DNA from: Octopus vulgaris
Lineage: Eukaryota
Assembly (NCBI GenBank): GCA_951406725.2
Contig: OX597819.1
Location: 12,214,001-12,278,000 of the forward strand
Reading direction: 5' to 3'
Length of the DNA: 64,000 nt
Part shown: in pieces, positions 2,926-41,500 of the stretch
Position numbering within the stretch: the first letter of the stretch is position 1
How the letters are laid out: each line of letters starts with the position of its first letter
Translations under genes and position numbers: made by a program
The notes under the pieces: generated by a model
Databases searched by the model: none
What the model was told of the DNA's origin: nothing
The model's input: the letters and a program-made list of their open reading frames with translations, nothing else

Positions 2926-3729
2926 GTGCATGTCAAAGGAGAAACATTTCATCATGCTATATGTAGAGTGATGGAGGAAAAAGACAACAGAAAAAGAAGC
3001 CAACGGGAGAAAGGAATACCAGGATCTTAACTGTTGACCTAGGCGGGATGAGCAATCACTGTCAAGAAATAAACACATCCTTGCACGCTGCTGTCTCCTT
3101 GAACTGCTGTATGTGCTTCCTGCCCATGCATGCCTCGTGGCTGATCCTCCGGCCCCTGCAGTCTTCATTTCTGTCTACTTCATCTGCAATCCTCTCCACC
3201 AACACCACATAGCTCATCACAGCCCATAACACCACACTATACATGCTTTCTTCATCAACATTTAATGTCTGTGTTCCATACAGGCATATGTTGGATAAGT
3301 TGACCAGAGCTGACAAAGCCATGAGTTGCACCAGTTTCCCTTGTCTGTTTTGGCTTGTTTTCTACAGCAGAATGCATTTCCTAATGTCAGCCATATTACA
3401 GAGAGCACAGGGTGTTATTTTTTCTTTTTTATATGACAACAAAACCAACATGGTCCCCAAGAACCTTGCAAGACAAAATAGCTCACAACTGGGAGGGAGG
3501 AAGGTAGTATTGAAGGAATGTCACTTTGTGCCAGTTGACAGGTTTAAGGTAGAAAGGGAACAGGGTCCAGATATAGAGTAAAAAAAACAAGCACAAAATA
3601 AATATTTTATTCATTATCCTTTATTAAGAAATTACTATAACTGATGAAAGGAAAAAGCCTGTGTTTTAGCAGACCAATTAGTGTTAATTATTGTTATGAC
3701 TTAATAAATTTTGACATTGAGACAGTAAT

Positions 3730-4135
3730 ACCCACATGTTTATGCATGTGGATTTTTCAAGAGAATGATTTGCCACATGTGTCACACTGACATGGCTACT
3801 CTCATGTAGGGATTCGTTCATGGACAGATAAGTTAGGTCTATGAGAGAATGCTTTAAAACAGACACGACCATTACATAGGTTGTGTCTGGTACGAACATT
3901 TTCGTGTGTACTTACAACACCATTTTCAACAAATTAATTACAACAACTAATGCAAGGTTATGGCTTATCTCCTGTATGTGTGTGTGTGTGTGTCTATTCA
4001 ACTGATGCCCTTGAGAAAATGACTCACCAAAGATCTCACAATGATAAGATTTCTCTCCTGTATGAATGCGTTTGTGAACAGTCAAGTGACCTGTTTGACA
4101 GAATGATTTACCACAAACATCACAATGTATACATA
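3730..4135 (-). pseudogene. Degenerate C2H2 zinc-finger array remnant
   Basis: [34 protein letters not shown]... followed by decayed fingers (CDTCGKSFS*); upstream part replaced by hairpin insertion. Confidence 0.8.
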
Positions 4136-4168
4136 CTTTATTTAAAGCAGCAGAAAATTCAACAAAAC

Positions 4169-4206
4169 CTGTTACTCTGAGTTTCACGTTCCCGTTCGTC
4201 GGACAG
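4169..4206 (-). ncRNA. Minimal hammerhead motif, CCGACGA variant
   Basis: Reverse complement CTGT-CCGACGA-ACG(GGAA)CGT-GAAA-CTCAGAG-TA-ACAG. Confidence 0.6.
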
Positions 4207-4216
4207 TTTTTGCTAA

Positions 4217-4254
4217 CTGTCTGACGAACGGGGACGTGAAACTCAGAGTAACAG
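4217..4254 (+). ncRNA. Minimal type I hammerhead ribozyme motif
   Basis: CTGT-CTGACGA-ACG(GGGA)CGT-GAAA-CTC(A)GAG-TA-ACAG: all core nucleotides and helices I-III present. Confidence 0.75.
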
Positions 4255-4347
4255 GTTTTGTTGAATTTTCTGCTGCTTTAAATAAAGCATATTACTCTAC
4301 CACTGGTATTTGAGTACTCTTTTGTTTCACATTTATGTGTTTACTCC

Positions 4348-4396
<49 letters not shown>

Positions 4397-5102
4397 TATA
4401 TATACATACGTGTATATTCATGCAAGCAGCCGCATACACACACATGCACAGCAACGAACAAAAAGAAACAGCTCCGATAATGTACATGGTCAAGAACCAG
4501 TGAAGAGGTTGCAAGAATTAAGGAATATTTTAGAAAATAAATAAATGAACGGTCCTCAAGAGTAAACCTCCGAATTGTTTTCCCCCAAAATTCCTACCTT
4601 CTCTGAATCTATATCGTCCGAGGCATATTTGTAGAAAATTTCATTTAAAAATATAACATCTATTTTCTTGAAAGTTAAGAAGAATTGAAGTTGACGCCGC
4701 TTAATTTTCTGAAACTCATCACACCAAAAGCAGTTTCCTACAAAAGTTTTGTAGGTATATTCGGAATCTACATACTTTAACAAATATTCGTAGAAAATTT
4801 AATTAAAGTTACGATCATCCAAAGTCGTGGGGCATGAATCTGTAGTTATGCCAGTTCTCCGTTCGTTTTACTCTCATTTTACAAATAAATTTCCTCTATA
4901 TCACACGTAACAGCCGATAAAAGGTTTTCATAAACAACAAACCAACATTTCAGTTTGGAAGTTATTATTTAAGACGAGGAAATATATTTTCCTAAAGTTT
5001 TTGTTTTCGCTTCGAAATAATTACTGTGACACCGAGAAGTTCACAGAATTCTATTATTTACATTGTTATTACTAGTATTATTGGCATATTCGCCTTATTG
5101 GC

Positions 5103-5796
5103 TTTATTTTTTTACATAAGTAATGAGAGCGAAAGAGACTAAGAGGAAGCGATTTTACGACGAGAAGGTTTCACTTTGAAGTCGGCCTGTGTGTGTTTGA
5201 TGGGGTGTGGGAGACAGACAGTATGTTGTGTAAGTGAAGTGCTTCTGTTAGTGTGTGTGAAGAGACAGACATACATATACACATACACCGAGTAAAAAAT
5301 TACTATGAATCGGCCATACATACATACATACACACACACACATACATAGATACATACACACACACACATACATACATACATACACACACACATACTTACA
5401 CACACACATAGATACATACACACACACACATACATGCAGACATACATATACACATACACCGAGTAAAAAATTACGATGAATCGGCCATACATACATACAT
5501 ACACACACACATACTTACACACACACACATACATAGATACATACACACACACACACATACATGCATACATACATATACACATACACCGAGTAAAAAATCA
5601 GTTATCTCTCTCTTTCACACATTACTCTCTCTGTCTCTTCGCACACACTAACAGAAGCACTTCACTTACACAACATACTGTCTGTCTCCCACACCCCATC
5701 AAACACACACAGGCCGACTTCAAAGTGAAACCTTCTCGTCGTAAAATCGCTTCCTCTTAGTCTCTTTCGCTCTCATTACTTATGTAAAAAAATAAA
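5103..5796. repeat. ~167-bp near-perfect inverted repeat enclosing CA-rich tandem units
   Basis: 5103-5269 is the reverse complement of 5630-5796; three ATATACACATACACCGAGTAAAAAAT units inside. Confidence 0.9.
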
Positions 5797-6085
5797 AGTT
5801 TTTTACGGAAATCGACGGAAATCTGATCTACGACATGCGAAACTTCGCCGTATTATTATCTTCATTAGAGCCTTAAAGTCAATATTTGTCAACTTACCGT
5901 GTTCAGATACAAACTGCGAGTCGTGATCGGTAATTAAGCACCTTAATTCATAATTGGAGCTTGGTTGAAGTAGTGTAGAAGTTATTTCCCTTTATATGAT
6001 TGTATTTCTTGAATTCTCCAATAGATGTCTCTACTGACTGGTTGTATTCGTTCCAGCATTTTTGTCTGTTCCCTTATATTAACGA

Positions 6086-6471
6086 CTAGCAGTATAACCC
6101 GGCGTTGCTCGGGTTCTTTTCGACCCTTCAGAATTGGAATTTTTGAAAAGTAAAAATTTTGCATTATGTAGCTTGTTATTCTCTTTAAGCGAACATTCAT
6201 TTTTCTGGTTGAAATACACCGAAGAATGGCGATACAGCAGTCAAAAAAATCGTAAAAAATAGGGACTTTCATAGAAAAAAAAGCACCTTGTTGATGTAAA
6301 TAATTTTTGGTCCTTAACATGGTCCGATTTGAATTTTATCTTCTATGGAAGGAAGAGCAAGCCTTCTTCTATCATACTCTCAATTTTGGTCAACCTGCGC
6401 CGGAAATAGTGTTAGTTGAAGGCTACCAAACCTGCCATACACAGACAACTTCAGCTCTATACACATAGAGA
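6086..6471 (-). mobile_element. Non-autonomous Helitron
   Basis: Minus strand begins TC after A, ends with CCCGAGCAACGCCGGG hairpin then CTAG followed by T (A^T target, no TSD). Confidence 0.7.
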
Positions 6472-6719
6472 TTTCACTTTCAATTCTCCTTTTTTAATTT
6501 TCACCTGGTCATTTTCAGAAAGTTTACTCATATATTCTGTTACAAAATACTGGTCCCCTGATACAGGAACCATGCAATTGATCATTGGTGTAATTTATAG
6601 AGATTTTCGTCACAAATTGCCCACTGCCGGCCTCAATTTCATTATCTTCATTGTAGAATATATTATTTCCTATACCTATTTCTTCATTGTCAACTTCAAT
6701 GTCGTCACTATAAGACATA

Positions 6720-7095
6720 CTCTTTTACTTGTTTCAATCATGTGACTGTGGCCATGCTGGAGCACTGCCTTTAGTCGAGCAAATTGACCCCCAGGACTTA
6801 TTCTTTGTAAGCCTAGTACTTATTCTATCGGTCTCTTTTGCTGAACCGCTAAGTTACAGGGACGTAAGCACACCAGCATCAGTTGTCAAGCGATGTTGGG
6901 GGGACAAACACAGACACACAAACATACATATAAACAACAGGCTTCTTTCAGTTTCCGTCGACCAAATCCACTCACAAGGCTTTGGTTGGCCCGAGGCTAT
7001 AGTAGAATACATTTGCCCAAGGTGCTATGTAGTGGGACTGAACTCGGAACCGTGTCGTTGGTAAGTAAACTACTTATCACACAGCCACTACGCCT
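6720..7095 (-). mobile_element. tRNA-derived SINE family 1
   Basis: Full-length copy matching 33737-34120. Confidence 0.85.
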
Positions 7096-7857
7096 ATTAT
7101 AATAATAGCTATTTCTATGAACATGCATTGGCATCAGGGATTACCTATATAAAAATAGGATCACATGCGGTCGTATCGTATAGGGAATACAATCGCACGC
7201 GATCCCATTCTTAATGATTATTTTACAGACCATATAATACATACAGCGGCAAAACACAAGTGGAATGACAACAAGATGTATTTTTGAGATATATACATTA
7301 TTTATTTTACATATTTTACAATCCTGTTGGTTGGAAGTTTGTAAGTGTTAGCATGTTTTTGTGTCTGTGTGTTCGTGAGGCATAAAAGGTACTGACCAGA
7401 GAAATAACAATGGAATTTGGTTCACAGTTCACGTTGTTGGTATCAGCCTAGCAACAGGTAGTAGCAGATGGCTTAAGGTAGTTCTTAGAAGAACTAGAAC
7501 TCAAGACAGATAATTGATTTACCGTTCATGAGGTACACGGAGGGTAAGAGTTCCATATCAAGATGTTGCGTCTCGTAGTTGAGATTAATTGAATCACTTG
7601 TGTTTATCTTTCTCTTGATATGAATATATTTCCAGATATATTAACTGTAGCCGTTTTTCCCGTGGTGATATTTTCACCTAACCGCTATAGTTGAATCTGT
7701 GGTTGTCTTGTGTACAAATTAAATCTTCGATGTTTGGCGATGAGTTGTGTCTGTCGCTTGGTTTTTGCTGCGTCTTCATCATATATTCTGCTTGGTTATT
7801 TTTCTCTTGATATAATGGTGGTCGCCTGCCTTTCGAACTGGAACATGATCGAGTATG

Positions 7858-7958
7858 CTCTGTGTGGTCAGAGGTCCGTTCTGAGAAGAACTAGAACCAA
7901 AGACGAACTCTGTGTGGTCAGAGGTTCGCCCTGAGAAGGACTTGAACCAAAGACGGAT
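7858..7958. repeat. Two tandem ~50-bp units
   Basis: CTCTGTGTGGTCAGAGGT...CTGAGAAG...GAACCAAAGACG twice; partial copy near 7480-7507. Confidence 0.8.
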
Positions 7959-8029
7959 ATTTGTCTGAGAACATTTCCTTATATAAGGTTTTTTTTATGT
8001 GGCTCAAAACGAACTTCAGAAATGGAAAG

Positions 8030-8135
8030 CTGTGATTGGCTGCTTGGAACAATGGCGCGAAAATAAGCGGAGACAAATCGCGTCACGTGACAACCAGTGG
8101 TGCGAACGTAGTAGAGACCACGTGTCAGCCAATCG
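8030..8135. promoter_or_regulatory. CpG-rich candidate (possibly bidirectional) promoter
   Basis: GATTGGC and GCCAATC (opposed CCAAT boxes), TGGCGCGAAA (E2F-like), GTCACGTGAC and CACGTG E-boxes within ~100 bp. Confidence 0.5.
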
Positions 8136-8889
8136 AATTAGTGTTTACAACAATGTTAAACTAGCCGAAGATGTTTGTAATCTCGAACAAGATTATTCTT
8201 AATACTCTTCTCAAATAGTGAAGATAGCAATGAGTGTAACGATATTGCTACACCTACAACCTAACAGTCAAAAAATGCAGACAGGCGTGTTTGTGTGGTA
8301 AGGAACTTTCTTCCCAACCTCATGGTTAGGGGTTCAATCCCAATGCAGAGCACATTGAGCAAGTGCCTTCAGCTATACCTCGGTTTAACCAGAGTCATCA
8401 TCATTTAACGTCTGTTGTCCAAGTTGACATGGTTTGGACGGTTTGACCAGGACTGGGGCTGATTTGGCATGGTTTCTACTTCTGGATGACCTTATCTAAC
8501 ACCAACCACTCCGTGAGTGTAATGGCTGCTTTAAAGTGACATCAGAGTCTGCCAGAACTACGACTTTACTTCGCTTGATGGCCTTTACAAGCAAGACATA
8601 ATGCAAAAGGTCTGAGTTATTCATCATTGTCTCTGTGAAGCCAAACACTTGAAACGTCCTTCCACACACCATCAGCATCAGCTGCTTTGCCACCGTTCAA
8701 GAATTTGGACCTGGAGATCTCCATTTTCAACGACTTCGAGGGCCACCTCCCAGTGATGTCAGGTGTCAACGAAAAGCCCTCGACTACAACAAGATGATCA
8801 CCGTTTTTTTTTCATTTTTCCAAGGTCTGCGCGATACATGTTTGGTAACAAAATAAAAGAATTTTTTAAAGAAAGTAAATAAATTATTT

Positions 8890-9298
8890 AGATTTTTTCG
8901 GTATGAACGGAAGTTTTTTCTAGCGGTGTCATTTGAAATTGTCACCCATAATTATGACCCTAGTATCGATCTATTGCATTTCAATCTGTTTTAGGGTTAG
9001 GGTAGGGGAAGGGTATTTTTTTCTTCACAAATGTAAATAAACCCAATCCGTTTCTTAAACGAGGGACATATTCATACGACACAGAATGTCTTTTTACCTC
9101 AATAGACGTCACTGATTGGTTGAAATTGCAGAAATTGAAGAAAGAAAACAACAAATATTTTACAAACTATTGAATTTTCTCAATAAAAACAAGAGAAAAA
9201 GATGTTTTATAAACACATTCTACCAGTATACGAAGTTTAAAAGTGTTTAGTTACGTGGAAATTATTTTTAAAAACTGCCGTTCAAACCGAAAAGGTTA
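8890..9298. mobile_element. MITE with GGATCTTTTCGGTTTGAACGGC-type TIRs (Merlin-like)
   Basis: Degenerate TIRs, AATTATTT on both flanks (8-bp TSD), internal TTAGGG-like motif; homologous to 19390-19790. Confidence 0.75.
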
Positions 9299-9470
9299 AA
9301 TTATTTTTTAAAACAATGTATATGGTTTTTTTACACAAATCAAATAAAAAGCAAAGTAAATAATTTTAAAAACCAAGTGGGTTTTCGAAGGATGGGATAG
9401 ACAAGACAAGATAGGATTTCTAGTCTTCGTACCTGACCGTTCCTTGAAACTGTTACCCATCATTAAAAAG

Positions 9471-9687
9471 TAAACACATAAATGCGAAACAAGGTGGAAA
9501 AGAGTACTCAAATACCAGAGGTAGAGTAACATGCTTTATTTAAAAGCAGCAGAAATATCACCAAAAAACTGTTACTCGCCGTTTCCCGTTCGTCGGACTG
9601 TTTTGTTAGAATGGAACTGTCCGACGAACGGGAACGTGAAACTCTGAGTAACAGTTTTTGTGATATTTCTACGGCTTTTAAATAAAG
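9471..9687. mobile_element. Fold-back element family A, second copy
   Basis: Inverted arms 9534-9598 and 9615-9687; extension homologous to the reverse complement of 4288-4345. Confidence 0.7.
9615..9656 (+). ncRNA. Minimal hammerhead motif, CCGACGA variant
   Basis: AACTGT-CCGACGA-ACG(GGAA)CGT-GAAA-CTC(T)GAG-TA-ACAGTT; perfect 6-bp helix I. Confidence 0.65.
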
Positions 9688-9780
9688 TTTGTTTTGCCAA
9701 CTGATCAGAATATCGTTCGCTAGTGTTATAAACATGTATGCTATTTTCACCAGTTGCTTTTAATGACAAGATATTACAGT

Positions 9781-14095: not shown

Positions 14096-14626
14096 ACACA
14101 AGCACCATGCTGGCCAGTGACTTTTACAAAATAATCTCAAGCGAAGATGAAGCAGTGTCCTTTTCGAGAGATTCCAATCTTATTGACCAGGTAGAAAATG
14201 CTCAGGATAAATGATGACCTGTGTACTACTTTTTTAAATGATATCAGATCAGTTTACAAACATGAAAAATCTACCATCCATTTTCTACTATAGCATGACA
14301 GCTACCAACTGTTAGTAGTATGAAATATGTTAAAAATCATTAAACATTTATTTTGCAAAAGGAAAAGAGCATAATAAAGAGTTTATGGTATAAGATTTAT
14401 TAAAAATCATTTACATCTTATACAAAATTTTTTTTAAATCATCAAATATTGATTTTAATGTTTGTAAACTGATCTGATATCATTTAAAAATGCAGTGAGC
14501 AGGTCATCGTTTTTCCTGAGCGTTTTGTAAATGGTTAATAAGATTGTGATCTCTCAAAAAGGATACTGTTTCATTTCCATTTGAGATTATCTTGCAAAAG
14601 TCTCTGGCCAGCGTGATACTAGTGTG
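14096..14626. mobile_element. MITE with ~165-bp imperfect TIRs
   Basis: 14096-14263 is a diverged reverse complement of 14458-14626. Confidence 0.7.
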
Positions 14627-17197: not shown

Positions 17198-18571
17198 ATG
17201 TTTCAGAAAGTGAGCAAACGTTACAAATGTGGCATTTGTGGTAAAGTACTTACTACAAAATGTAATTTAGCTATTCACAGGCGCACTCATACAGGGGAAA
17301 AGCCATACCACTGTGAAGTATGTGAGAAAGCATTCTCTGTAAAAGCTTATTTAACAGAACACAAACGTACACATACAGGAGAGAAACCATTTCATTGTGA
17401 AATATGTGGAAAATCATTTTCTGATAAAGGTTACATAAAGATACACAAACGTACTCACACTGGAGAGAAACCATACCACTGTGAAATCTGTGGCAAAGCA
17501 TTTTCACAGTTTCATAATGTGAGAAGTCATCAACTTATTCACACTGGAGAAAAACGATACCATTGTGAAATCTGTGGCAAGCCATTTTCTCGACTTGGTA
17601 ATTTATCAAGACATAAACGTACTCACACTGGAGAGAAGCCATACAGGTGTGATGACTGTGGGAAAGCTTTTTCTAATGTGAGTGATTGTGAAAAACACAG
17701 AGGCGTGCACTCAAAACCTTACCACTGTGAAATCTGTGATAAAACATTTTCTGTCAAAGAGTCTTTAACAGTACACAAACGTGTTCACACTGGAGAGAAG
17801 CCATATGCTTGTGAAGTATGTGGGAAAGGATTTACAAGTAGTGGTACCTTAATAAGGCATAAACGTACTCACACAGGGGAAAAACGACACCGCTGTGAAA
17901 TCTGTGGGAAATCTTTTCCAGAAAAATATGTCTTAACATTACACAAACGAATTCACACAGGAGAGAAACCATATCACTGTGCGGTTTGTGGAAAAGACTT
18001 TTCTGATAGGTGCAGCTTAAAGAAACACAATCGTATTCATACTGGAGAAAAACCACATCACTGTGAAATCTGTGGCAAAGCATTTTCTCAAAATGGGACT
18101 TTAAAAAGACACAGACGTATTCACACAGGAGAGAAACCATATCACTGTCTAATATGTGGGAAAGAATTTTCACATAAGAGCAGCTTAACAGAACATACAC
18201 GTATTCATACTGGGGAAAAGCCACACTACTGTGAAATCTGTGGCAAAGCATTTTCTGAAAAATCTGTCCTATTAGTTCATAAACGCACTCATACTGGAGA
18301 AAAACCATATCACTGTGAAGTTTGTGGCAAGGAATTTTCCAATAGTGGCAGCTTAAAAGGACATATACATACACACACTGGAGAGAAATCACATTACTGT
18401 GAAATCTGTGGCAAAGCATTTTCTAACTTGAGGTGTTTAATAAGGCATAATCGTACCCATACTGGGGAAAAACCATACAGCTGTGTTATTTGTGGGAAAT
18501 CATTTCATCGTAGTGATTATATATCTTCTCATAAATGTACTTTTAATGATGGAGATAAACCTTACCACTGA
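17198..18571 (+). CDS. Tandem C2H2 zinc-finger protein (15 C2H2 plus a terminal C2HC-like finger), no effector domain in this exon
   Basis: 457-aa open frame of CxxC...HxxxH fingers with TGEKPY linkers; splice acceptor TTTTTCTTTCAG ending 17072 upstream. Confidence 0.92.
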
Positions 18572-19810: not shown

Positions 19811-20587
19811 GGATCTTTTCCTTTTGAACAGCACTTTCTAGGTAACTAAAAAGTTTTAAACTTCGTATACTGGTAGAATGTGTTTATAAAACATCATTTT
19901 TTCTTGGCTTTATTGAGAAAATTCTATATGTTGTAACATATTTCATCTTTAATTTTGAGCATTTCGGCAATTTTAACCAATCGCTGACATCCATTTACGT
20001 AAATAACATTCTGTGCATAATGAATATGTCCCTCGTTTAAGAAATGGATTGGGTTTATTTACATTTGCGAAGAAAAAAGATACCCTTCCCCAACCCCTAA
20101 CCCTAAATCTAAAATAGATTGAAATGCAATAGATCGATACTAGGGTTATAATTATGGGTGACAATTTCATACGACACTGCTACGGAAAATGGGATTTTTT
20201 TCTAGCGGTGTCAAATGAAAATGTCACCCATAATTATGGCCCTAGTATCGATCTATTGCATTTCAATCTATTTTAGATTTAAGGTTAGGGGTTGGGGAAG
20301 GGTATCTTTTTTTCTTCGCAAATGTAAATAAACCTAATCTGTTTCTTAAACGAGGGACATATTCATTATGCACAGAATGCTATTTACCTAAATGGACATC
20401 AGTGATTGGTTAAAATTGCCGAAATGCTCGAAATTAAAGACGAAATATGTTACAACCTATAGAATTTTCTCAATAAAGCCAAGAGAAAATGATGTTTTAT
20501 AAACACATTCTACCAGTATACGAAGTTTAAAACTTTTTAGTTACCTAGAAATTATGTTACAAAGTGCCGTTCAAAAGGAAAAGATCC
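19811..20587. mobile_element. Palindromic dimeric MITE with 8-bp TSD
   Basis: ~380-bp inverted arms, ends GGATCTTTTCC...GGAAAAGATCC, flanked by AAAGATTT at 19803-19810 and 20588-20595. Confidence 0.85.
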
Positions 20588-25029: not shown

Positions 25030-25132
25030 ATCAAAATAAGCAACAAGTATATCCAAGGTAGAGTAGTACAATTGTACTAGCATGAAACAATTGTGCTACT
25101 CTACCTTGGATATACTTGTTGCTTATTTTGAT
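25030..25132. repeat. ~45-bp-arm hairpin containing a 3' half hammerhead-like motif
   Basis: ATCAAAATAAG...ACAATTGT / ACAATTGT...CTTATTTTGAT; GAAA-CAATTG-T(G/A) at 25084-25095; abuts (TA)n. Confidence 0.75.
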
Positions 25133-29766: not shown

Positions 29767-30306
29767 ATGTATCAGAAAGGTTACAAATGTGATATTTGTG
29801 GCAAAGATCTTACTACAAAATCTAATTTAGCTATTCATAGGCGCACTCATACAGGGGAAAAGCCATACCGCTGTGAAGTATGTGAGAGGGCATTCTCTGT
29901 AAAAGGTTATTTAACAGAACACAAACGTACACATACAGGAGAGAAACCATTTCACTGTGAAATATGTGGAAAATCATTTTCTGATAAAGGTTACATAAAG
30001 ATTCACAAACGTACACACACAGGGGAAAAACCGTACCACTGTGAAATCTGTGGAAAATCATTTTTTAATAAAGGTTACTTAAAGATACACAAACGTGTTC
30101 ACACTGGAGAGAAACCATATCACTGTGAGGTTTGCGGAAAAGACTTTTCTGATAGGTGCAGCTTAAAGAAACACAATCGTATTCATACTGGGGAGAAGCC
30201 ACATCAGTGTGAAATCTGTGGCAAAGCATTTTCTGTAACTGCTAGTTTAAAAAGACACAGTCTTATTCACACAGGAGAGAAATCATATCGCTGTTTAACC
30301 CTTTAG
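29767..30306 (+). CDS. Truncated C2H2 zinc-finger paralog (6 intact fingers)
   Basis: Same acceptor/ATG context as the 17198 gene; fingers match 1, 2, 3, 3', 10, 11; stop codon supplied by the MITE. Confidence 0.65.
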   Translation: MYQKGYKCDICGKDLTTKSNLAIHRRTHTGEKPYRCEVCERAFSVKGYLTEHKRTHTGEKPFHCEICGKSFSDKGYIKIHKRTHTGEKPYHCEICGKSFFNKGYLKIHKRVHTGEKPYHCEVCGKDFSDRCSLKKHNRIHTGEKPHQCEICGKAFSVTASLKRHSLIHTGEKSYRCLTL

Positions 30307-30511
30307 TGTTCAGATTATTCTGCCAAAATTTTTATCCACATTGTTTTGAACTAATCATGCATTATCTTGTAGCTATGAGATTTTGATGAGGTAGCTGTTA
30401 ATTTTTGAAACGATATCGTAGGGTCGGTGTGAGAGACCAGATCTGGTCAGTTTGAACATAAAACTGGCAGAATACTTTTGGCTGGATATGGCCGGTTTAA
30501 ATGCTAAAGGG
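30299..30511. mobile_element. piggyBac-like MITE
   Basis: TTAA|CCCTTTAG...CTAAAGGG|TTAA. Confidence 0.9.
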
Positions 30512-31160
<649 letters not shown>

Positions 31161-32365
31161 ACTTTTGTAGGAAAGCATATTATAAAACCATTTCGTTGTG
31201 ATATTTGTATTAAAGAATTTATGTATATGAATGTTATTAAATTACTATAAATGTTTATATGTTTAGTGTATTTTTTGGAAGTTGTAAATTTTTCATTTTT
31301 AATGTTACTTGTTAGGTCACATGATATGGTTAGAGTGAGAAAACCGTTGTTACTATTACTACTACTAGTGACAATGCAACAGAATTAGGGAGACATACGA
31401 CACTCCATCCACTGCATGCAGTTACCTAGCTGCTGTTGAAGAGATAGTATCAAGGTGTACAAAGGAACCAGGACTAAATACATGGCCATTATAGAGAATG
31501 ATGCAAATTGGGATGTGCCCCCTTTACACAAGTAAATCCTGGAATAGCATGGAAAGGACGAAGATAGGTAGGTAAGGCCAACTAACTCATAGTTTGATAA
31601 GTAAAGATACCAGAGTATTATGCTCATTGGTGCTACCCCTTAGATAAGGTGAATCTGTGGATGAAAATAGTAGAAAGGCCAGGTACCTCCATGAAATCCT
31701 AGATTAGTAGAACATATCTATTTCAAAGAACTGCCTGTAGGGAGAGCAACAGTAGTGTAGAATGAACTCACAGATAAAGTGTAGTGAAGTATGGAAGAGA
31801 AACAGGACAACAACGTACATTGGTGGAAGATGGAGAAGCGCTCATCAGTGCTCTACCAACATGCTCAATTAGAATATGAAGGCTCAGTTAATAATGTAGA
31901 TAAGATATATAGACCAGACATGACACTCAGACAGATTATGGAGGCCACACACGCACAGTTGTTGATAACTGAGCCTCAGCAGAAAGTAGGAATGGTTTAA
32001 CCTCACCAAAAAAAAATCTTTGTTTATAAAAAAAATAAATTAGCTAAGTTTAAAAAATTATTTACTTTGTTCGAAAAATATTATTTAATTTGTGTAAAAA
32101 AAATCATATACATTGTTTTAAAAAATAATTTATTTACTTAGTTTAAAAAATTATTTTCTTTGATTTGTGTAAAAAGAATCATATACATTGTTTTAAAAAA
32201 TAATTTATTTTCTTTAAAAAATTATTTTATTTTGTTCGCAAATATGTATTGCGAATCGCGCATGCGCAAATCAACTCATTTGCATACGCACAAGTCGTAG
32301 GATCGACTACTTAAGACTAGCTTGCGCATGTGCATGCACTGGGACCATTATTCACTAGTAGTACC

Positions 32366-32397
<32 letters not shown>

Positions 32398-32558
32398 CGT
32401 ATATTTGCCATTTAAATATGGCTAACCCGTAAGGGTGGATGCTACTGTAGCTTGTAGCCCCAGGAGGACACACTCCTCCAGCTGGCTATAGACACACTTT
32501 CTGTGCCCTATCAGTTTTTGCAAAGGGAAGCCATCCTTCCCATCTTCTACTTATGATA

Positions 32559-32603
32559 CACACGGACTCGAGTTTCTGGGTATTGACCCTTCATCGGCGT
32601 GTG
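32559..32603 (-). ncRNA. Minimal hammerhead motif, identical copy on minus strand
   Basis: Exact reverse complement of 32817-32861. Confidence 0.65.
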
Positions 32604-32816
32604 ACAATCAACAGTTGTCGATGAAAATAGGTTCCCTTCGCAAATACATATCCTTTTTCCAGTATCGTAAAGACACTGATATCGAAAAAGTAATAATAAT
32701 ATCTAATATTTATTATTGCTTCTTTACACTTTTTCGATATCAGTGTCTTTACGATACTGGAAAAAGTATATGTATTTGTGAAGGGAACCTACTTCTCATC
32801 GACAACTGTTGATTGT

Positions 32817-32861
32817 CACACGCCGATGAAGGGTCAATACCCAGAAACTCGAGTCCGTGTG
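32817..32861 (+). ncRNA. Minimal hammerhead motif (CCGATGA core, palindromic helix III)
   Basis: CACACG-CCGATGA-A-GGGT(CAAT)ACCC-A-GAAA-CTCGAG-TC-CGTGTG. Confidence 0.65.
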
Positions 32862-33082
32862 TATCATAAGTAGAAGATGGGAAGGATGGCTTCCCTTTGC
32901 AAATACTGATAGGGCACAGAAAGTGTGTCTATAGCCAGCTGGAGGAGGTGCCCTTCTGGGGCTACAAACTACAGTAGCATCCACCCTTAGGGGTTAGCTA
33001 TATTTAAATGGCAAATGTACATCACGATGTGTTGCAGCTACTGTTTATAACTCGCTCTAAGATTTATTATATATATATATTA

Positions 33083-35406: not shown

Positions 35407-38400
35407 ATATAACAAGAAAACAGAAATTGACATGCAGACATCAATTTATTAGAACATATTCAATTCCGAACAATATCAAACTCCTTAGCACCTACAACTG
35501 TTTCCATGCCCAATTCAATTAAATCAGTTTCATATTAAATATAGTTAATTGGATATTTCGTCAAGGGAAGAACTTGATAGAAAGGAGCTACATTCCAATA
35601 TTTTGGTTGCTCCTCAATAGACTTAATTTTTGAGAACGGTCGGGTTCACTTTTAGAATTCTCATTTGTGAGAGCAGTCGAGTTTATTTTAGATATTCTCA
35701 TTTTAAAAATCATCTCTGGCTAAACATTGAGAGTACATTGGTGTTGCCTTGGCAGAGGTTTGCGCTCTCATTTTGCATTTTAATATCTAAGAATTATTGA
35801 ATCTGTTTAGTTATAATCGTTAGTATATTAAGCCTGAGATATCCACCTAATTTATAGTCCTAGTAAACTATATTGTATTTAATTTTTGAAAACATTTACA
35901 GGCGCAAACACAAGATAACCCACTCTCTTTTTTGGTGTTAAGGAGTCTACGTCCAGAATTTAACATTTGTAAACACAGAGTAAACAGGCATTTCCAATTT
36001 TATAGGCACCAATCCTGCCTATTATTTCCCACTCCACAGTAATCATTTTATTCTTGTCCTTCAAGTCCCAAATAAATTTGCTAGGGGTGCTAAAAGACGA
36101 CTTTTAAAAAAATTTTTTTTTATTAAAAGGTGCAATTGTGGTTGGTGATGCATTTTTTCATATAGTTTTCCTTTGAACTGATGTAAAAGATTTCACTCTA
36201 CATTTAGGTTTTTTTTTTTTTTGTTAATCATTAAACAAACAGTTATTTCTAACTTTGCAATCACAATACATATTTTTATTTCTAATCATATTTCTATTCT
36301 GATTTATATCATTACATTCAGCATCATTTCTATTCCTCAGGTTAAGATGGGATTCAACATGGGTTGTTTCCTGTTGTACACTAAAAGATTTATTTATGTA
36401 TTCTTTACTAACATTATTTCTTAGAGTATTATCATCGTTATAAAAATTTGATAATTTCCTCTCGTTAAGGGAAGAAATAATTTGGGACATATTTTTAGAA
36501 AAAAGCCACATGGAAAAAACTGGTATTAATTATATCACAGTATCTATTTTCTGTAGTAAAATGTTTATATAAAGATCCAAACAAATTATTCATAATTTGC
36601 ATAGTGAATGGAATAACGAACCAAATAATATTGCTCTTATCAAAAGTTATGTTGCAATTTTCAAACCTGATTATATACATATGGGGTGTGTTTTATTCTA
36701 TTATTGCTACTACTAATTTTACGAGCATTATCCAATGTACAAAGCAATTTACATATTAATCTGATATTTATTTTTATCATTTATATTCTTATTCATATTT
36801 CTTCTAGGTCCTTTATAATTGTTATTAGAGCAACTGTTGCCCACATTTTGTGCATAATACTTTAACCTCTGGTTATATCCTGCTTTGCCAAGTGCCATGT
36901 TATAGTAGTCTGCATTTTTGCTAAAGATATCCTTATGACATGATATATTAGATATTCTTCTAAAAATATTATAAACTAAAAAATTATTGAAGAATTAGGA
37001 TAATTACTTCCAATATTTATATACTTAAGATTAGAGTTAAGCTTGTGGAATAAAGGGCAGATTTTCAATCCTGATTCTGAAAAGGTATATATCAATGTAG
37101 AGCAAATATAGACTTGAAATACAGGGGTTCTGGATGGACAAAATTTTGCTTTTATCTTACACACATGCATGGCTGTTTTTTTTTTTTTTTTTTTTTTTTT
37201 AGTTTCCATCAACCAGATTCACTCACAAGGCTTTGGTCAGCTTGGGGCAATTATAGAAAGCACTTACCCAAGGGGACATTCAGTGGGATTAAAAGCACTT
37301 AAACCACTCAAATGATTCCTGGGAACCAAAATTGGAATAATTTGCTTAGAAGGAGACTGACTGTGCGGTTAGCTTCCCAACCACAAACTTACAAGTTTAG
37401 TCCCACCGCTGGCACTTTGGGCAAGTGTTTTCTACAATAGCCCTAGTCTGACCAAAGACTGGTGGGTGAACTTAGTAGAAACTGAAAGAAGCTTGTCACG
37501 TGTGTGTGTGTAATCGACAATGCATGATAATTATGTAGTTATGAGTGTGCGTCATGTAAGTAGTGACAATCATTTCCAATATTCTGCACAAAAAAAGTCT
37601 GGTCATGAGAAAATTTTATTTTGCTCGGAAATATGAAGGGCCTGTAGCTGTTGAAAATCTGCCTTAAACTTATACAAACTATACAATCATGGAAAAGTTG
37701 ATATTAAAACAATGATGATGATGATATCCTCACTTTGTTTACAACATTGATCACTCAACAAATGTATTTTCATTTCAATCTTTTATTCAATAATATTTTT
37801 TTGTGTGAGTTTCTTTTTTTTTTTTTTGTTTTGATTTAGTTTCCAAAAACAATTTTAAATGTACGAAGTGGCAGGTGATGGATTTTGGAGGGGGGAAAAA
37901 AAAAGGTCAGCAATAAACCAACCAAGATGTTTTTGGAATTATTTTAAATTTTTCATTTTTTTTTAGTTTTTTTTAAATATTTTTATTTTAAATTATTAAA
38001 TGTTTCTACTAAAAAGTTTGAGGGTATTTTTTAAACAAACCCCTTTCACCTGACCCAAGATAAACTTTATTTTTCATTCCTACCTTTTAAAAAAAAAAAT
38101 CTATAATTTTCATTTACTTTGTATCTTGTTTCAGTTAATTCACCCCCCCCTCTCCCCCCACTCCCAACACAATTTCAAAGCACTAACATTAGCTCTGAAC
38201 AGGAATTCCCTTTTTTTAAATTATTTTTTTATGTATTTTTTTTCATTGAGGGGCAAAAAAAATGAGGGTAGACAAAAAAAAAAAAAAAAAAAAAAATTGC
38301 CCCTTGTCTACTGATCGCAATATATATATATATATATATATATATCATGATCTTTAAAAAAAATCTTAAACAGGAAAAATGCTTTCCCCTTTTCTTTCAT

Positions 38401-38519: not shown

Positions 38520-41500
38520 CTAAAATAAGATAAAAAAATATATATATACATACATATATATTACAGGTACTTTTAATTTAAAAACATGCACCAATTCTAA
38601 ATATCAATCCATTTTCTCTGTCCACTATTGCTGGGAGTCATAGATGTTGAGTCAGGCACATTCTCAGTAGGGTCCTATAAGAAACATCATCCAATTACTA
38701 ATGGGTGTTCCCTCCTGGACCTACTGTGGTGTCTCTGAACACACATCTTTTGGGCTCCCATTCTGCATGAAGAACAAGCTGCAGGCTTACTGCTGGTTGG
38801 ACTGGTCACCACCTTGGTAATGTTCGTCCCTGAGGGTATCTGCCCCACCAGCCTTCTCCCTGCACTATGTTGCTCTCCATCATCAACTTGTTTCCCTGCT
38901 ACATATATCTACAGCAACCTCCACCTGCAAGCCTCTCCTATATTTCTCTCCATTTGATACAATCACCTCATCCACCCCACTAAATGGCCCATGCTTCTAT
39001 ATCACCTCACTTAGTCTCACTATACCCAATGTCCCTTGAAGGCATGTCTCAACATCTGTACCATCATCTCACATTATCAGTATCTTACTTTCCAACTAAT
39101 TCTTTGTTTTTCAACTGGGGTAACCATGTATCTATCTACTCCACAGCAAGACAACTACATCTGTTCCCTCTACACCTTAAATCTCCCAAATGGCACAAAA
39201 CTACATCCACTCAATACTACTTCTCCACCTCCCAGTCAAGGCGTTTTTGTTGTGCAAGGTATCTAGTAACCCTTTTGGTGCTCATGACAAAGCACCCAAT
39301 ACACCAGAAAGTAGTTGGCATTAGGAAGCGCATCCAGCTGTAGAAATCATGTCAAAGACTATGGCTTACCAGCACCTGTCAAACTGTCCAACCCATGCCA
39401 GCATGGAAAACAGGCAGTAGATGATAATGAAATGAATGCTTCTTTTATAGATCTGAACATCCCTTGTGACAGGTGATGTGGTATGGCTATTTTTACAAAC
39501 TCTTTCATATTACAAGCTGGGATTTGTACTGGACTTGTGACACATTCTAAATATCTTCTCTAAAAATTCAATTCAGTGAAAAAGCCAATATACTAAAGTA
39601 CCATAAGAAATACACCTTTTCAAATAATTAACTTAATTGCATAAGGAACTGACTCTTGCCAGTGAAGAAAACAGAAGCAAGATTGAAACCAGCCCTCTCA
39701 CCAAATAGAACCAAATGAACTCACCATTAACTGATAGTGTTGGTTTCATCGGTTGTTTCTCCAAACCTGCAATAATTATTCTTTCTATCCACTCTTTAGT
39801 TTTATATGATGTCTGTGGATTCACCAATCTGAAATAAAGGGGAAAAAAAAAATTTGTCCAGTATTCAGAAGAGGATAGTAAAAATATAAAGATTTGTTAT
39901 AATGGTGTTGGTCATAGCACAGAAAGAATAAATCCCAAAGGTGACAATTTTACACTTAGATGGAAAATATTCAACCTTTCAGAATTACAGGAATGTACTT
40001 GCATAGAAAGTGACTTAATCTGCATGAAATTTTGTCAGTGAACAGGTCATGGTTTCAAAGCAATGGAAATATTTTGACAAATTAAATTTGAAGTGTTGCA
40101 ATTGTTATTGAGTTAAACCAACCACATCTGGCCCAAATATTCTGTTTTATATTCAAACTGGTCAGATCTGGCTCCTCTCACCTACCCTACAATGTCATAC
40201 TAACAATAAACAATTAAATCATTGAAGTTTCTAAGCTACGAGATAATGCAGGATTAATACAAAACAATGTGAATAAATAAGCATCACATTTGAAAAAGTA
40301 ATCAGAATGCCAAGGGTCAAGACCACATTGTAGGCAGAGGTGAGACTGTGTGGTAAGAAGTTTTTGTTTCTCAACCACATGGTCCTGGGTTCAGTCCCAC
40401 TGCATGACACTTTAGGCAAACGTCTACTAGAGCCTCAGGCTGACCAACTTCTTGTACAAGAAGTTGGTCAGCCTGAGGCCTAGTAGACATTTGCCTAAAG
40501 TGTCATGCAGTGGGACTGAACCCAGGACCATGTGGTTGAGAAACAAAAACTTCTTACCACACAGTCTCACCTCTGCCTACAATGTGGTCTTGACCCCTTG
40601 GCATTCTGATTACTTTTTCAAATGTGATGCTTATTTATTCACATTGTTTTGTATTAATCCTGCATTATCTCGTAGCTTAGAAACTTCAATGATTTAATTG
40701 TTTATTGTTAGTATGACATTGTAGGGTAGGTGAGAGGAGCCAGATCTGACCAGTTTGAATATAAAACAGGTAGAATATTTGGGCCATGGGGAAATATCTC
40801 ACTAGGAAAATGGTGAGGTTGGTAACAGAAAGGACATCCAACTATAGGGGATGAAAAAAATCAACCTCAACAAATTCTGTCTGACATGCAAGGAAAGGCA
40901 AGTGGATGCTAAAATGGTTGTTATAGTTACACAAAGTGCTAAGGTTTTTGATATATTAGAGAAAAGTTCTCCAATCGGTTTTATAGGACTTATGCGACAG
41001 TTCTCCATATTTAAACTTGCAACAATAGTTAAGCTACAATTATACATTCTTGCTAGAAAAACAATACTTACTTGGTGGATAATGTATTTTTTTCAAATGT
41101 AAATTCTTGATGTGCAAACTCTGCTTGTTTATATTTTGTGGAATGATAATCGTCAATATAAAGATCTCCTTTGGCAACATCCTGAGAGAGAGAGAGAGTC
41201 AGATACAAAGTATTATAATTTTGGTCCTTTGCAGCTACTACCTATACAACCGATCTAAAATACCTCAACAGCAATATAGAATTAGTGTAAAACTACTACA
41301 AATGAGGTGGTGTATGAGGGAGATGTACTGTTGTAAGTTTTTTAGCAGGGGGATCACATCGTCATATAGAATAATAGCAAAAAATTTAAGGCAGGTTATT
41401 TAAGAAAAACAGGAGATTCTTTGTTGAAAAGACCAATGATTAAAGGTAAACCAGTTATGACATTTAGACTTGTTCAAGAGATTCAGAACTATATTATCTC

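What the first reader, a model, noticed from the sequence alone, without database searches (positions are those of the whole stretch)
4136..4350. Second hairpin family (A), unrelated in sequence, with back-to-back hammerhead motifs, at the break of a ZNF remnant
Seen: 73-bp inverted arms. The + arm has a canonical core CTGACGA-ACG(GGGA)CGT-GAAA-CTC(A)GAG-TA closed by CTGT/ACAG; the - arm has the CCGACGA version. A unique extension ends in (TA)n. The element sits exactly where the minus-strand zinc-finger homology stops (4135). Inference: a partially inverted Penelope-like terminal repeat whose insertion was associated with loss of the 5' part of the ZNF gene.
Basis: partly seen in the sequence, partly recalled or inferred. 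Interest (0 to 1): 0.72.

Follow-up and report, generated by a model that had tools for sequence, protein, structure and literature searches.

The report
Hydra-Penelope foldback stump at zinc-finger deletion
The hairpin is a mirror-image stump of an abundant Penelope-type jumping gene sitting where most of a zinc-finger gene copy was likely deleted; the layout is already known, and the textbook-looking ribozyme core in one arm is likely a chance mutation, because close relatives of this copy carry a non-standard core.

Summary
The 73-bp arms (2 mismatches) and both hammerhead motifs are real. They are two head-to-head, 5'-truncated ends of an abundant Hydra-clade Penelope-like element. It has 5,265 exact motif matches in the genome, and copies with intact 711-aa ORFs (RWK, DKT, TERT-like fold).

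Three corrections. (1) The 'unique extension' is the family tail, the start of the element's own 5' leader. (2) Zinc-finger homology stops at 4127, not 4135. (3) This subfamily's core is CCGACGA (386 copies, against 20 CTGACGA and 18 CCAACGA), so the canonical + arm core is likely CpG decay. In RNA spanning both arms the hairpin is predicted to bury both ribozymes.

Four paralogous ZNF loci hold 1.5-4.3 kb with 8-13 more fingers where the window has the element, so the gene loss is supported. Its junction lies 8 nt from the element, so cause and order are open.

Additions: 63 of 68 inverted pairs join one tailless and one tailed end, and U4C-core subfamilies spread before a canonical-core one. 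The foldback layout is in print, and this scan noted it before on other octopus-like DNA.

The parts
3237..4127 (-). 3' remnant of a C2H2 zinc-finger gene copy: last two fingers (4127 to about 3960) plus 3' untranslated and flanking DNA
   Evidence: Pfam zf-C2H2 E 2.6e-05; 84-89% identical to paralogs on C27, C29 and C6; homology ends at 4127
4128..4135 (.). TATACATA, likely the remaining left part of the TA-rich target; the deletion junction lies at its left edge, with a possible ATG microhomology
   Evidence: Paralog microsatellite reads ...gtATGtataagcata and the ZNF reads caATG; median microsatellite-like run beside 87 tailless ends is 36 nt; origin inferred
4136..4215 (-). Inverted 5'-truncated element end, tailless type (end A, 37 nt past the predicted cut site)
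4169..4206 (-). Type I hammerhead motif with CCGACGA (U4C) core and GGAA loop, identical to the subfamily majority
   Evidence: this locus is among the 386 matches
4215..4287 (+). Sense 5'-truncated element end (pseudo-LTR fragment)
4217..4254 (+). Type I hammerhead motif with CTGACGA core, 3-bp stem II and near-palindromic short stem III (predicted to work as a dimer)
   Evidence: one of 20 such copies; cleavage not tested
4288..4349 (+). Tail (end B): first part of the element's 5' leader, 71 nt in the family and 62 nt here; begins with a small predicted bulged hairpin
   Evidence: In 16 of 16 full-length copies this sequence, or its 3' part, lies directly before the ORF; lengths and fold
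4350..4389 (.). (TA)20 at the tailed end
   Evidence: TA follows most ends in the family
4390..5082 (+). Host flank shared with ZNF paralog loci, where it lies 1.5-4.3 kb from the ZNF break
   Evidence: 94-95% identity over 4400-4753 in the best paralogs; colinearity
9469..9693 (-). Second, older foldback of the same family; tail to the left, + strand hammerhead at 9621-9650 with CCGACGA and loop-III T

Best explanation
This is a non-coding foldback stump of a Hydra-clade Penelope-like retrotransposon, made of one tailless and one tailed end joined head-to-head, likely produced when both strands of a cut TA-rich target primed reverse transcription at two start sites on the element RNA. Shown: family identity, coding parents, two discrete 3' ends (37 and 108 nt past the predicted cut site), their 63-of-68 pairing, and the tail being 5' leader sequence. 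Inferred: the endonuclease cuts both strands; each 3' end primes cDNA, one from site A and one from site B; both cDNAs stop early and are joined, often at the palindrome CTAG upstream of the hammerhead. Because both ends lie beyond the cut site, the template was likely uncleaved or re-ligated RNA. The parent of this copy likely carried CCGACGA, and the + arm likely became CTGACGA by CpG deamination. Both motifs are predicted to be inactive in RNA that spans both arms. A 1.5-4.3-kb deletion likely removed the start and most fingers of this ZNF copy; it ends 8 nt from the element and was likely a separate microhomology join at the same TA-rich site, before, during or after insertion.
For: Long copies sharing the end carry an RT/endonuclease-type ORF. 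14 frames of 727 codons and 2 of 726 lie in 16 fetched regions chosen for long frames. Motifs RWK37, DKT113, YRDD344, CRLC667, CRH695 match the Hydra definition (PMC8557442 section 11). The model (pLDDT 92.4) has TERT as top fold match, E 2.3e-09. Of 56 aligned proteins, 4 hit RVT_1 and 2 hit GIY-YIG. Ends: 129 A and 107 B; inverted pairs are AB 63, AA 3, BB 2 against about 50% expected; 39 of 42 are AB after leaving out L001-L030, which were picked with a tail-containing query. CTAG is in 24 of 34 short spacers. Two RT starts, both-strand extension and dispensable HHR cleavage were shown in vitro for a Poseidon element (PMC11167929). Core counts 386/20/18. Forcing stems I and II costs 69.6 kcal/mol with both arms and 0.7 with the right arm alone. 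Paralog gaps are 4260, 3657, 3042 and 1540 nt with 11, 13, 8 and 8 fingers.
Against: The query protein itself hit no Pfam family and no PDB sequence at a significant level. The CxCX5C linker is mostly CxFX5C in this family (F 46, C 4, Y 2 of 52 counts, overlapping loci not removed). The endonuclease fold was not searched separately. 5 of 68 pairs break the A/B rule, and one locus pair appears twice in the list under L144. One foldback has CTGACGA in both arms with all else exact (C18), so a minor T lineage or conversion between arms is possible. Four other paralog regions (L231, L233, L239, L242) show the right flank on the other side of the ZNF (tandem units), and in one the window's two outer ends are only about 46 nt apart. 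No mechanism step was tested for a Hydra element.
Confidence: 0.85

Rival explanations
1. The insertion itself caused the deletion: a second break inside the ZNF exon was joined during integration.
For: The deletion junction is only 8 nt from end A. Of 87 tailless ends, 5 have a microsatellite-like run of 8 nt or less and most of those resume TA-rich sequence, so abutting unique DNA is unusual. The remnant looks little decayed.
Against: The 8 nt resemble the paralog microsatellite, not the ZNF, so the primer end and the deletion join are different junctions. TA-rich DNA could attract both events independently (inference).
Confidence: 0.3
2. There was no deletion: a fragment running from the TA site through the flank to the ZNF break circularised and re-inserted, and the element sits at the circle junction.
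For: In the C27:23.64 Mb paralog the order is 5850-8832 then 3006-4077, with about 46 nt between; similar order appears in L235 and L246.
Against: The paralog at C6:115.09 Mb is colinear with the window from 3237 to 9469, past the supposed opening point, and includes a low-copy piece with 12 matches in the genome. Tandem unit boundaries explain the adjacency.
Confidence: 0.1
3. The foldback arose by self-priming on a single (antisense) template at a palindrome, as proposed for rotifer Penelope elements.
For: Palindromic CTAG in 24 of 34 short spacers; model in PMC3846280 (passages).
Against: It does not by itself explain why the two outer ends are almost always of different type (63 of 68). 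Arms are often unequal, and pairs span up to 5.4 kb.
Confidence: 0.15
4. It is a non-autonomous retrozyme or MITE-like hairpin family with selected back-to-back ribozymes.
For: ORF-less, high copy number, two motifs.
Against: The same end flanks coding copies. Spacer lengths vary continuously from under 10 nt to kilobases. No tandem small unit was seen in the loci examined. The motifs are predicted to be buried.
Confidence: 0.04

Closest known systems
Hydra clade of C-terminal EN+ Penelope-like elements, including Hydra-1_Obim of Octopus bimaculoides (Craig et al. 2021, PMC8557442; seen: outline, passages, section 11, supplement part 2 of 59 and search hits)
   Same: Single ORF, RWK and DKT motifs, CxxC and CxH near the C-terminus, (TA)n targets, short type I hammerhead. 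Hydra-2_aMil has the same CTGT/ACAG stem I and ACTC/GAGT stem III. The N-terminal part of Hydra-1_Obim is clearly homologous by eye.
   Different: A separate family: the Hydra-1_Obim hammerhead differs in all stems. The unit is about 3.4 kb (tandem period 3,431 nt) against under 3 kb for most. The linker is mostly CxFX5C. All 26 Hydra rows in the published HHR table begin CTGA, while older subfamilies here have CCGA.
Inverted 5'-truncated pLTR plus tail insertion units (PMC8557442 Fig. 2 legend; PMC3846280 passages; opposite-strand hammerhead pairs in PMC4209133, parts 1-2 of 4)
   Same: Head-to-head inverted ends, tail often at one end only, palindrome at the junction, hammerheads on opposite strands.
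   Different: The tail is 71 nt against 30-40 nt. The one-end rule is counted here (63 of 68).
Poseidon_Ac (PAc) of Anolis, in vitro (Frangieh et al. 2024, PMC11167929; parts 1-2 of 4 and passages)
   Same: Two internal RT start sites bounding the tail, both strands cut and extended, AT-rich target, HHR cleavage not needed for insertion.
   Different: Different clade. In PAc the starts lie inside the ORF; here they lie in the 5' leader. That paper saw no strand difference in start-site use, whereas the pairs here imply coupling.

Membership tests
Penelope-like element (EN+) | Telomerase-like RT in a single ORF | tested here: met
   711-aa ORF, YRDD, top fold match TERT; in parent copies, not in the window stump
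Penelope-like element (EN+) | C-terminal GIY-YIG endonuclease | tested here: inconclusive
   VVY581 and YTG598 motif halves; Pfam GIY-YIG in 2 of 56 aligned proteins, none in the query; domain not folded or searched alone
Penelope-like element (EN+) | Pseudo-LTRs, partial tandems, inverted 5'-truncated copies, optional tail | tested here: met
Hydra clade | RWK motif and DKG changed to DKT | tested here: met
   RWK37, DKT113, no DKG
Hydra clade | CxCX5C linker | tested here: inconclusive
   C in 4, F in 46, Y in 2 of 52 counts; present in a minority and in 20 of 42 long homologues
Hydra clade | CxxC and CxH around the conserved E and N; no CCHH | tested here: met
   CRLC667 and CRH695 are the only such matches; absence of CCHH judged by eye
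Hydra clade | (TA)n insertion preference | tested here: met
   TATAT follows 75 of 87 A ends; median pure TA run 24 and 23 nt at A and B ends
Hydra clade | Placement in the Hydra RT clade by phylogeny | not tested
   Reference sequences were only seen in a supplement and compared by eye
Type I hammerhead ribozyme | Core CUGANGA...GAAA...UH with three stems | tested here: inconclusive
   Met in the + arm and in the young coding subfamily (12 of 12 full-length 5' ends that reach the core); U4 not met in the - arm and in 386 of 424 subfamily copies
Type I hammerhead ribozyme | Self-cleavage | not testable with these tools
   Only contigs were available, which cannot show RNA ends
Non-LTR retrozyme | Tandem small non-coding units, each with a hammerhead | tested here: not met
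   Copies are truncated ends of a coding element in inverted or single arrangement; definition from bioRxiv 10.64898/2026.07.22.740005, part 1 of 5

The most novel reading that the evidence does not exclude
Successive master elements of this family moved for a long time with a weakened U4C hammerhead core, and the youngest, still-coding subfamily regained the canonical core. Meanwhile every insertion was made by an asymmetric RT pair that starts one strand at the tailless site and the other at the tailed site. That would be genomic evidence that strong ribozyme cleavage is dispensable for Penelope mobility in vivo, and a rule that fixes the integration mechanism. The young intact copies make both directly testable.
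Probability: 0.45. Interest if true: 0.5.

Novelty: new member of a known kind. Interest (0 to 1): 0.3.

Why it matters
The locus itself is an ordinary retroelement stump. The family is useful for two open questions in the papers read: what the hammerhead does for Penelope-like elements, and how inverted and tailed insertions form. It offers natural U4C and U4 subfamilies, near-identical intact ORFs for biochemistry, and a counted end-pairing rule. It also records one ZNF gene copy lost at a TA-rich site.

Tried and rejected
Rfam: no hammerhead family. Pfam and PDB sequence searches with the 711-aa ORF: nothing significant. Sequence look-up in earlier findings: none.

Sequencing runs: no RNA holder listed. 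Contigs of four runs guessed to be RNA cover the pLTR and most of the ORF of a young copy, but RNA is a guess and contigs show no ends. One contig of run X1 spans 4050-4154 across the ZNF/element join with only 27 letters on the right side, under the tool's 31-letter bar, so it is not counted. No read-level test of the deletion order was possible.

Tail hairpin: -5.9 kcal/mol, reached by 39 of 1000 shuffles; 7 changes in 972 paired and 4 in 756 unpaired positions in 54 of 57 tails, so no sign of selection at this depth. Dimer cofolding did not return the dimeric hammerhead as the lowest-energy fold; uninformative.

TATACATAC on both sides as a target duplication: not accepted, because about 50 nt separate the right copy from the element and the paralog microsatellite explains it.

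A second hairpin family with CCGATGA gave only 5 pattern matches, too few to call its master core.

Literature: 'hammerhead ribozyme' + 'U4C' returned 1 paper (PMC3088659 passages: U4C lowers activity in vitro yet allows viroid infectivity). Searches listed no paper that I could see describing this family, a U4C Penelope lineage or a count of end pairing; most listed papers were seen as listings only. The O. vulgaris repeat annotation (PMC13282606, passages) reports recently active Penelope-like families without the word Hydra; its repeat library was not seen and may contain this family. PMC6155905 passages added nothing.

Full report
Observation. The arms 4136-4208 and 4215-4287 are complementary at 71 of 73 positions. 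Each carries a type I hammerhead motif: + strand CTGACGA with loop GGGA, - strand CCGACGA with loop GGAA. The + arm continues for 62 nt to (TA)20. The genome is 2.8 Gb in 227 contigs.

Family. A DNA search gave 625 first-look candidates, 40 scored. Exact matches to a degenerate 39-nt hammerhead pattern number 5,265 with 0 for the control; these are motifs, not elements. Walking upstream with a 29-mer (154 matches, 30 fetched) found four copies sharing about 1.5 kb or more. All four held broken pieces of one ORF. A protein search scored 150 places at 90-100% identity. Sixteen regions picked for long frames held 14 frames of 727 codons and 2 of 726. The protein has RWK, DKT, YRDD, CxxC and CxH, the Hydra signature in PMC8557442 section 11. 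Its model (pLDDT 92.4) matches TERT best. Against this: no Pfam hit for the query, and the CxCX5C linker mostly has F for the second C. Hydra-1_Obim has a different hammerhead, so this is another family.

Tail and ends. The extension is the sequence between the upstream pLTR and the ORF in full-length copies. Copies end either 37 nt (A) or 108 nt (B) past the predicted cut, then TA. Across the 210 loci then held there were 129 A and 107 B ends, and inverted pairs were AB 63, AA 3, BB 2. About half would be AB by chance; without the first 30 loci it is 39 of 42. Short foldbacks often join at CTAG (24 of 34). PMC11167929 showed two internal RT starts bounding the tail, extension of both strands and no need for HHR cleavage in a Poseidon element. 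I infer paired priming with one start site per strand. A tail at one end only, and hammerhead pairs on opposite strands, are already described.

Core. With flanks fixed to this subfamily, exact counts are CCGACGA 386, CTGACGA 20 and CCAACGA 18. The two minor forms are the two products of decay of one CpG and are equally frequent (p 0.87). The - arm equals the majority, and the + arm differs at both arm mismatches. In the first 100 listed matches of the wider pattern I counted by hand 69 CTGATGA with GCAA/CGA, 28 CCGA, 2 CCAA and 1 CTGACGA; exact matching favours young copies. Divergence from the commonest sequence is 0.081 (n 9), 0.014 (48), 0.019 (8) and 0.012 (22) for the four groups with C4 as majority or inferred master, and 0.007 (63) for the U4 group. 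The 48 and the 8 are enriched for T forms by my queries. All 12 full-length 5' ends that reach the core have CTGATGA. Other changes between subfamilies fall at position 7, the GNRA loop, loop III and the stem II closing base, which fits a conserved fold (inference). U4C is reported to lower activity in vitro yet to be viable in a viroid (PMC3088659 passages). In a transcript through both arms, forcing stems I and II costs about 70 kcal/mol, so both motifs here are predicted silent. Minimal PLE hammerheads cleave poorly and as dimers (PMC4209133).

ZNF. Homology stops at 4127. The remnant is the last two fingers, and the downstream stops are ancestral. The DNA right of the element belongs to ZNF paralog loci. 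Of nine paralog regions compared, four have it on the same side as the window, 4260, 3657, 3042 and 1540 nt beyond the break with 11, 13, 8 and 8 fingers between. The first three gaps are 89% alike over about 3 kb. Four regions show it on the other side of the ZNF, as expected in tandem arrays, and one 10-kb region shows no match to it. A circular permutation was considered because of a 46-nt adjacency in one paralog; the C6:115 Mb paralog, colinear to 9469, argues against it. The 8 nt left of the element resemble the paralog TA-rich site, with ATG shared with the ZNF at the join. The deletion therefore ends beside the insertion but by a separate junction. Order is open.

Verdict. A real, correctly guessed feature of a known kind: new Hydra family, known insertion shape. 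Earlier notes of this scan report the same shape for other families. The additions are the U4C history, the counted end pairing and the mapped deletion. Interest 0.3.

Noticed in passing
window 32473-32947: An unrelated foldback with two hammerhead-like motifs, both CCGATGA, stem III CTCGAG. Only 5 exact pattern matches in the genome: 2 CCG, 1 CTG, 1 CTT, 1 CCA.
   Followed up: partly
window 25030-25132: A short foldback of another family that shares TACTCTACC with the start of this family's tail and ends in (TA)n.
   Followed up: no
L103 (G000:C25:45180500-45187500): One of four full-length copies truncated inside the 5' pLTR begins at about ACAG, the predicted hammerhead cut site; a single case.
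   Followed up: no
window 4128-4135 and 4350-4409: One alignment to paralogs puts the insertion between ...CATA and AATA..., where they have no (TA)n, so the (TA)20 may have been added during or after insertion. Another alignment puts it in the nearby TA run.
   Followed up: partly
family end A, e.g. window 4287/4288: The template continues with CATAT but 75 of 87 genomic A ends continue with TATAT and only 2 with CATAT, which fits priming without full pairing.
   Followed up: partly
L099 (G000:C4:134760000-134769999) and L106 (G000:C12:43653000-43662999): An inverted pair of two full-length intact ORFs, and a full tandem with 3,431-nt period.
   Followed up: partly
window 17228-18500 (+), 29788-31200 (+), and about 1.0-2.5 kb left of the window (-): Three related multi-finger C2H2 arrays of another ZNF subfamily; the one at 29788 changes frame.
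   Followed up: no
window 5103-5796, 14096-14625, 19835-20551, 40142-40769: Other long inverted repeats without a hammerhead core by my pattern; 40142-40769 is a nearly perfect palindrome of about 290-bp arms.
   Followed up: no
window 36857-36979 (-): Weak match (39% over 41 aa, E 3.5e-04) to the family protein.
   Followed up: no
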